A stretch of 64,000 nt of DNA from positions 62,001 through 126,000 of the forward strand of contig MU053559.1 in the NCBI GenBank assembly GCA_013239625.1, written 5' to 3'. The number at the start of each line of letters is the position of its first letter. Position 1 is the first letter of the stretch. Shown here in pieces: positions 4,105-27,938 of the stretch. The stretch is from Lama guanicoe. Taxonomy: Eukaryota. The translations under genes and the position numbers were made by a program. The notes under the pieces are model-generated. The model had not been told where the DNA came from. It was given only the letters and a program-made list of their open reading frames with translations, and did no database searches.

Positions 4105-27938
<23,834 letters not shown>

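What the first reader, a model, noticed from the sequence alone, without database searches (positions are those of the whole stretch)
24062..24077. In-frame premature stop in CACNA1F exon 39, upstream of the IQ domain
Seen: exon 39 reads ...CGG ACA TCC CTG AAG ATG TAG ACA GAA G|gt, i.e. RTSLK-M-STOP-TE, with TAG at 24068-24070 (about codon 1534 by my exon sum). Knowledge: L-type channels have the conserved LKIKTEGN here, so two adjacent bases appear changed (ATC AAG-like > ATG TAG). The stop would remove ~450 aa, including pre-IQ/IQ and the C-terminal modulator, and has nine exon junctions downstream (NMD target). CACNA1F nulls cause X-linked incomplete congenital stationary night blindness in humans. 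All other 47 exons are open and conserved, so this is not an old pseudogene. Inference: either a recent loss-of-function allele (a natural animal model) or a consensus error. Skipping the 103-nt exon would frameshift, so it cannot rescue.
Basis: partly seen in the sequence, partly recalled or inferred. Interest (0 to 1): 0.85.

Follow-up and report, generated by a model that had tools for sequence, protein, structure and literature searches.

The report
Lone stop codon in camelid CACNA1F
The retinal calcium-channel gene CACNA1F in this camelid genome record carries one premature stop, made by two adjacent base changes in an otherwise perfectly preserved gene; it is more likely a sequence error or a private allele of the sequenced animal than a true loss of the gene.

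Summary
Exon 39 (window 23975-24077) reads [33 protein letters not shown], with TAG at 24068-24070. My gene model has 48 coding exons and 1980 codons, with this as the only in-frame stop, at codon 1534.

- **Conservation:** every orthologue I could see reads Ile-Lys here. That is 49 of 49 proteins holding the region, including two Camelus species. Both paralogue exons in the same genome read ATCAAG where the window has ATGTAG.
- **State of the gene:** nothing else is damaged. All 47 introns have GT/GC-AG ends. In a 28-row alignment the only private change at an invariant column is I1533M, beside the stop.
- **No rescue:** I found no second exon copy, in-frame cryptic donor or in-frame skip.

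This is not an old or fixed pseudogene.

From base rates, which are inference, I put a record error at about 0.55, a real private or rare nonsense allele at about 0.36, and a fixed loss at about 0.04 or less.

The parts
4105..27938 (+). CACNA1F (Cav1.4 alpha-1F) coding region: 48 coding exons, 1980 codons plus terminal TGA
   Evidence: Exon chain built from tblastn of orthologues with splice-site refinement. Identity to the hippopotamus orthologue P0189 is 1909 of 1973 aligned residues.
23975..24077 (+). Exon 39 (103 nt, AG acceptor, GT donor), encoding the segment between the GPHH region and the IQ domain
   Evidence: It aligns to residues 1447-1480 of solved Cav1.1 chains, which read ...LKIKTE.
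24067..24068 (+). The two adjacent bases (GT) that differ from the CA found in both same-genome paralogue exons. They turn Ile-Lys (ATC AAG type) into Met-stop (ATG TAG).
   Evidence: paralogue alignments; Ile-Lys in orthologues.
24068..24070 (+). In-frame TAG, codon 1534; the only internal stop in the 1980-codon model
23718..23814 (+). Exon 38, Pfam GPHH (IQ-associated) region, upstream of the stop
   Evidence: PF16905, E 4.9e-14.
24658..24788 (+). Exon 41 with the IQ motif (…[15 protein letters not shown]…), downstream of the stop and intact
   Evidence: PF08763 Ca_chan_IQ, E 4.1e-08.
27708..27938 (+). Exon 48, the distal C-terminal tail (Pfam CAC1F_C) and normal TGA; intact, and 100% identical over 71 aa to several orthologues
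   Evidence: PF16885, E 1.8e-42.

Best explanation
The TAG is not the normal state of this gene in this lineage. Two adjacent bases (24067-24068, GT where CA is expected) in one assembly record turn the invariant Ile-Lys of the L-type channel motif LKIKTEG into Met-stop. The rest of CACNA1F is untouched. The most likely cause is an error in the consensus sequence of the record (base-calling, polishing or local assembly error), so the animal's real gene encodes a full-length Cav1.4 channel. Shown: the stop is in the record; it is the only defect; relatives and paralogues have Ile-Lys. Inferred: that the two bases are an artefact and not an allele.
For: (1) The gene has a single lesion. The model has 48 exons and 1980 codons with one internal stop, and all 47 introns have AG acceptors, with 45 GT and 2 GC donors.
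(2) In a 28-row alignment (the window plus 27 orthologue models), the window has exactly 1 private change at an otherwise invariant column. That change is I1533M, directly beside the stop. The other 27 rows have 0 to 28 such changes. So both abnormal codons come from one 2-base event, and there is no sign of relaxed constraint, including in the 446 codons after the stop.
(3) Ile-Lys is present in 49 of the 49 hits that hold the region, out of 57 hits. These include the closest named proteins, from Camelus ferus (P0012) and Camelus dromedarius (P0005, P0179, P0180). All 27 orthologues in the alignment have it, as do the solved Cav1.1 chains. Among 120 unnamed exon fragments, 117 have K and 118 have I at the two positions; the other 3 read R[V/I]-Y-T.
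(4) Base rates, from established knowledge plus inference. CACNA1F is X-linked and null alleles cause disease (passages of PMC8370969), so null alleles are rare in any one animal. Gene-loss studies treat stops private to one assembly as unproven. They require either sharing with a sister species or at least 5 reads with none supporting the ancestral allele (passages of PMC7671337).
(5) C>G plus A>T at adjacent positions is an unusual natural mutation. I found no template of 9 nt or more within +/-2 kb that could have donated it.
Against: No read, and no second assembly of the same species, was seen, so nothing shows directly that the bases are wrong. Apart from this site the record looks accurate. 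There are no frameshifts in 5940 coding bases, no N in the 64-kb window, and no other private change at invariant columns. That argues against a generally error-prone sequence, in which a two-base substitution error in unique exonic DNA would be easier to believe. Adjacent double substitutions do occur naturally. The region is single-copy in the assembly, so paralogue or haplotig mixing does not explain it, and both paralogues carry CA in any case.
Confidence: 0.55

Rival explanations
1. This is a real germline nonsense allele, p.[Ile1533Met;Lys1534*], carried by the sequenced animal. It would be private or rare in the population and very young. The mRNA would be open to nonsense-mediated decay, and any protein made would lack the IQ domain and the C-terminal modulator. 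[quoted passage not shown]
For: The stop is in the record, and the surrounding sequence gives no sign of poor quality: 0 N in the window, and no frameshift or other anomaly in 5940 coding bases. A single lesion in an otherwise perfect gene is exactly what a young segregating allele looks like. Natural Cacna1f nulls exist in rodents, namely the nob2 mouse (PMC2432030) and a CSNB rat (PMC2267729); for both I saw only the search listing (title and start of abstract). Truncating CACNA1F alleles are a main class of human CSNB2 mutations (passages of PMC8370969). CSNB2 is non-progressive and could go unnoticed in a farm or zoo animal (my own knowledge).
Against: The prior chance that the one animal chosen for a reference genome carries a null of a constrained X-linked disease gene is low, and lower still for a two-transversion adjacent change. 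No independent data set showing the allele was found. My searches found no report of a camelid CACNA1F variant. For 'cacna1f'+'camel' there were 15 papers, judged by title and abstract start, with passages read in one of them. For 'cacna1f'+'alpaca' there was 1 paper, that same one.
Confidence: 0.36
2. This is a fixed, lineage-wide inactivation of CACNA1F in this camelid species: a unitary pseudogene at an early stage.
For: Only that the stop exists, and that the window's protein differs from both Camelus proteins at a few sites (for example Y1658 against H). The window's species is therefore not one of those two and was not itself cross-checked.
Against: There is one lesion only. All splice sites are intact. 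There are no private substitutions at invariant columns other than the one made by the same 2-base event, and the 446 codons after the stop are as well kept as the rest. Two Camelus species are intact. Camelids are sighted animals, and CACNA1F loss impairs photoreceptor synaptic transmission (PMC8370969 passages).
Confidence: 0.04
3. The stop is real but functionally bypassed, by alternative splicing, stop-codon read-through or RNA editing, so a working channel is still made.
For: None found. Cav1.4 does have many C-terminal splice variants (PMC8370969 passages).
Against: Skipping the 103-nt exon shifts the frame. The GT created at 24067-24068 would, if used as a donor, shorten the exon by 11 nt, which also shifts the frame, and its context GAT|GTAGAC is weak (read). 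There is no second copy of the exon in the window or the genome. UAG followed by A is not a known read-through context, and A-to-I editing would give Trp, not Lys (my own knowledge). The splice variants named in the passages I read act at exons 42-47, downstream of the IQ domain, not here.
Confidence: 0.02

Closest known systems
[quoted passage not shown]
   Same: The gene is the same. It is a premature stop in the C-terminal cytoplasmic region, predicted to be removed by nonsense-mediated decay or to give a channel lacking the calmodulin/IQ machinery and the C-terminal modulator.
   Different: Here the stop is seen only in one animal genome record, without read support, phenotype or pedigree. 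It arises from two adjacent substitutions (Ile-Lys to Met-stop), not one.
Spontaneous rodent Cacna1f mutants: the nob2 mouse (PMC2432030) and the CSNB rat (PMC2267729); search listing only (title and start of abstract)
   Same: They are naturally arisen inactivating alleles of the same X-linked gene in an otherwise normal genome. This is what the finding would be if it is real.
   Different: Those alleles were found through a phenotype and confirmed on cDNA and by ERG. According to its abstract, nob2 is a transposon (ETn) insertion in exon 2 with partial rescue by splicing. No such rescue path exists for exon 39 here.
Assembly-private 'inactivating mutations' that gene-loss screens must validate (Sharma and Hiller 2019, PMC7671337, passages read)
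   Same: It is a single stop codon in one assembly, not shared with sister species, in a disease-associated and constrained gene. This is the class that such screens accept only after read validation.
   Different: I could not run the read validation, so the site remains unclassified and not shown to be an error.

Membership tests
CACNA1F / Cav1.4 orthologue (the locus itself) | Best protein matches are CACNA1F orthologues over the full length | tested here: met
   One search returned 57 hits; those with a source name are all called alpha-1F or L-type alpha, and the rest are unnamed or called only 'hypothetical protein'. Identity is 1909/1973 to hippopotamus P0189 and 1793/1841 to the Camelus ferus model P0012.
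CACNA1F / Cav1.4 orthologue (the locus itself) | C-terminal domain set GPHH, Ca_chan_IQ and CAC1F_C | tested here: met
   PF16905 (exon 38), PF08763 (exon 41) and PF16885 (exon 48).
CACNA1F / Cav1.4 orthologue (the locus itself) | Single-copy locus in conserved gene order (a PET/LIM Prickle-type gene downstream) | tested here: met
   One search found one locus plus two paralogue exons on other contigs. One search found PET and LIM domains at 47.5-52.8 kb on the same strand. That the human neighbours are SYP and PRICKLE3 is recalled, not tested.
CACNA1F / Cav1.4 orthologue (the locus itself) | Uninterrupted reading frame | tested here: not met
   There is one internal TAG at codon 1534.
Unitary pseudogene / fixed gene loss | Several independent inactivating lesions, or lesions shared with sister species | tested here: not met
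   There is one lesion only, and all 47 introns have canonical ends. The Camelus ferus and C. dromedarius proteins read Ile-Lys.
Unitary pseudogene / fixed gene loss | Relaxed constraint (excess substitutions at conserved sites) | tested here: not met
   The window has 1 private change at invariant columns, and that change is part of the same 2-base event. The other 27 rows have 0-28. dN/dS could not be computed because no relatives' DNA was available.
Validated inactivating mutation (criteria in PMC7671337) | At least 5 raw reads support the mutation and none supports the ancestral allele | not testable with these tools
CSNB2-type truncating CACNA1F allele | Premature stop upstream of the IQ domain, more than 55 nt before the last exon junction | tested here: met
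   The stop is in exon 39 of 48. The IQ motif is in exon 41. Nine junctions and 1338 coding nt lie downstream.
CSNB2-type truncating CACNA1F allele | Present in the animal's germline, with an ERG or visual phenotype | not testable with these tools
   No reads, no RNA laid and no phenotype data were available.

The most novel reading that the evidence does not exclude
The TAG is a true germline allele, p.[Ile1533Met;Lys1534*], segregating in a camelid population. [quoted passage not shown] They have a large eye suited to ERG, imaging and gene-therapy trials. My searches found no camelid CACNA1F variant in print.
Probability: 0.36. Interest if true: 0.55.

Novelty: not a real feature. Interest (0 to 1): 0.25.

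Why it matters
If the two bases are an error, the value is practical. Annotation pipelines will call CACNA1F a low-quality or disrupted gene in this species, and comparative gene-loss screens could wrongly list a vision gene as lost in a camelid. The record should be checked and corrected.

If the allele is real, it would be a naturally occurring null of the photoreceptor synaptic calcium channel in a large, long-lived, farmed mammal. That would be useful as a CSNB2 model, and relevant to breeding if the source animal or its relatives are used as sires or dams.

In either case it says nothing new about how Cav1.4 works. The consequences of truncation before the IQ domain are already understood from human and rodent alleles.

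Tried and rejected
- **Read check.** No read-level result exists, and the shares of words say nothing about the two bases.
- **Metagenome scan.** I scanned for the exon end with the two positions left open. It gave 0 matches, which is no information.
- **Same-species ORF fragments.** I looked for them in the protein collection. The best exon-39 fragment is only 80% identical. The Logan fragments of the last exon are about 70% identical once their intron-derived parts are counted. None comes from this species. A TAG-bearing ORF would be only 27 aa and would not be called as a gene, so its absence is not evidence.
- **Second lesion at the exon-2 donor (/GCATCC instead of /GT).** Rejected. 7 of 10 unnamed read-through fragments from other mammals read EWK-HP (that is, GC) and 3 read EWK-YP (GT). 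Three rodent gene models also read EWK-YP. The GC donor is a normal state of this U12-type intron.
- **Three apparent private substitutions at codons 500-507 in my first model.** These were an artefact of a missed 27-nt exon (9903-9929). They vanished in the corrected model.
- **Many mismatches to the Camelus ferus protein P0012.** Most are faults of that deposited gene model: a wrong-frame N-terminus, intron read-in and an internal duplication. They are not real differences.
- **Templated mutation or small inversion.** There is no direct or inverted copy of 9 nt or more of the mutated site within 22000-26000. GT is the complement, not the reverse complement, of CA, so a 2-bp inversion does not produce it.
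- **Spare copy of exon 39 (mutually exclusive exon).** None in the window or in the genome.
- **Earlier notes of this scan.** None lies near the site, none matches by sequence, and none mentions CACNA1F.
- **Own-genome protein search for stops in paralogue exons.** 26 matches, none with stops. A strict first look was used and exon 39 itself was not among the matches, so this is not a usable measure of assembly quality.

Full report
**Observation**

The window at 23975-24077 (+) is an exon bounded by ...gcgcag| and |gtgtgt. It translates as [33 protein letters not shown], with TAG at 24068-24070. The window is G000:C1178:62001-126000 of a 2.05-Gb assembly in 55,231 pieces. A DNA search of that assembly with 251 bases around the site found the locus itself plus two paralogue exons on other contigs. 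Those paralogues read AAGATCAAGAC and AAAATCAAGAC where the window reads AAGATGTAGAC (79/102 and 78/103 identities overall). So the abnormal Met-stop pair comes from two adjacent bases, 24067-24068, GT in place of CA.

**Gene model**

I fetched CACNA1F orthologues with the last exon as query (57 hits). I aligned them to the window and refined every junction to splice sites.

- The final model has 48 coding exons from 4105 to 27935, followed by TGA. It has 1980 codons.
- There is one internal stop, at codon 1534 in exon 39.
- All 47 introns end in AG. 45 begin with GT and 2 begin with GC.
- Pfam places GPHH in exon 38, the IQ domain in exon 41 and CAC1F_C in exon 48. The stop therefore lies upstream of the IQ domain, as stated.

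**Conservation of the site**

- Of the 57 hits, 49 contain the region and all 49 read Ile-Lys (L[K/R]IKTE). My first pattern matched 48. The blind mole-rat model P0029 was missed by the pattern but also reads SLKIKTEG. The other 8 are short fragments without the region.
- In a 28-row alignment (the window plus 27 orthologue models), the two columns are I and K in all 27 orthologues.
- Solved Cav1.1 chains read LKIKTE at residues 1475-1480.
- A search with the read-through ORF of the exon (TAG read as X) listed 120 unnamed fragments. 117 have K and 118 have I at the two positions. The 3 others read R[V/I]-Y-T. Proteins in a database cannot contain stops, so this set shows conservation only. It cannot show other carriers.

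**Which organism and relatives**

- The closest named protein is the Camelus ferus model P0012. The Camelus dromedarius proteins P0005, P0179 and P0180 are equally close over their length.
- All of these read LKIKTEG.
- The window differs from both Camelus species at a few genuine sites. For example, it has Y1658, shared with hippopotamus, goat and rhinoceros, where both camels have H. So it is a camelid but not identical to either named species.
- No protein or fragment from the window's own species turned up.

**Is the gene decaying?**

No.

- In the corrected alignment, the window has one private substitution at a column that is invariant in at least 20 other rows. It is I1533M, the codon that shares the 2-base change with the stop. 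The other 27 rows have 0 to 28 such changes.
- Three apparent private changes in my first model came from a missed 27-nt exon and disappeared.
- I briefly suspected a second lesion at the exon-2 donor, which is /GCATCC and not /GT. It is followed 14 nt before the acceptor by TCCTTGAC, the look of a U12-type intron (the consensus is recalled). However, 7 of 10 unnamed read-through fragments from other mammals read EWK-HP (GC) and 3 read EWK-YP (GT). Three rodent models also read EWK-YP. So the GC donor is widespread and normal.

**Rescue routes**

- Exon skipping shifts the frame (103 nt).
- The new GT at 24067-24068 would make a donor 11 nt upstream of the normal one, which is out of frame and in a weak context.
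- There is no spare copy of the exon in the window or elsewhere in the assembly.
- Nothing supports read-through or editing.

**Reads**

This was the decisive test, and I could not run it. A metagenome scan for the exon end with both positions open found nothing.

**Weighing the two live readings**

This section is inference.

- Both readings fit a single young lesion in a perfect gene.
- For a real allele: the record is otherwise clean here. There are no N, no frameshift in 5940 coding bases and no other odd residue.
- For an error: the chance that one reference animal carries a null of a constrained X-linked disease gene is small, and the share of natural nonsense alleles made by an adjacent double transversion is smaller still. 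Errors in consensus sequences, by contrast, tend to cluster.
- Stops private to one assembly are treated as unproven by the field until reads or sister genomes confirm them (PMC7671337 passages).
- My odds are about 0.55 for a record error, 0.36 for a real private or rare allele, 0.04 for a fixed loss and 0.02 for a bypassed stop.

**Comparison with what is known**

- If real, this is one more truncating CACNA1F allele of the CSNB2 type (PMC8370969 passages). Its natural-animal precedents are the nob2 mouse and a CSNB rat, both seen only in the search listing.
- My searches found no report of a camelid CACNA1F variant. 'cacna1f'+'camel' gave 15 papers, judged by title and abstract start, with passages read in one. 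'cacna1f'+'alpaca' gave 1 paper, that same one.
- If it is an error, it is an ordinary artefact.

**Verdict**

An old pseudogene and a shared loss are excluded. Interest is low to moderate until reads are checked.

Noticed in passing
window 5842-6207 (intron 2 of CACNA1F): This looks like a U12-type intron with a GC-AG pair. The donor is /GCATCCTGG, and TCCTTGAC sits 14 nt before the acceptor. The same GC donor (read-through EWK-HP) appears in 7 of 10 unnamed mammalian fragments, and GT (EWK-YP) in 3, plus three rodent gene models. GC and GT therefore alternate among mammals at this minor-spliceosome donor.
   Followed up: partly
window 22116 (donor of exon 34): This is the second GC-AG intron of the gene. 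It is of the ordinary U2 type, with context CAG|GCAAGT.
   Followed up: no
window 9903-9929 and 21339-21359: There are two very short coding exons, 27 nt (…NKIMKTKV…) and 21 nt (NGGHLGE). Both are intact with AG/GT borders. The 21-nt exon is absent from many deposited orthologue models ([15 protein letters not shown] forms), so it is probably optional. The 27-nt exon is easy to miss and was skipped in the goat model P0198.
   Followed up: partly
protein P0012 (named Camelus ferus CACNA1F), aligned to window 5619-9240: The deposited gene model has a wrong-frame N-terminus, intron read-in at several exon ends, and an internal duplication: two stretches of the protein map to the same window exon at 9001-9240. 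It has 15 private changes at invariant columns, which are mostly model artefacts.
   Followed up: no
window 24149-24184 (intron 39, about 80 nt after the stop): There is a tandem direct repeat of about 17-18 nt (GGGATGGGCCCCACCCC twice). It is a small local duplication close to the abnormal site. No link to the 2-base change was shown.
   Followed up: no
window 47521-52769 (+): ORFs here hold a PET domain and two LIM domains, so this is a Prickle-type gene downstream of CACNA1F on the same strand. An ORF at about 31.3 kb begins [12 protein letters not shown], which I recall as the start of synaptophysin. This is the gene order recalled for the human X-chromosome locus.
   Followed up: partly
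window 10900-11148, 50293-50532, 58051-58371: ORF translations contain the recurring peptide G-I-[DEK]-P-R-T-S-C-...-S-T-T-E-L-[FY]-P. This is the look of a tRNA-derived SINE family scattered through introns and intergenic DNA. The identification is recalled, not tested.
   Followed up: no
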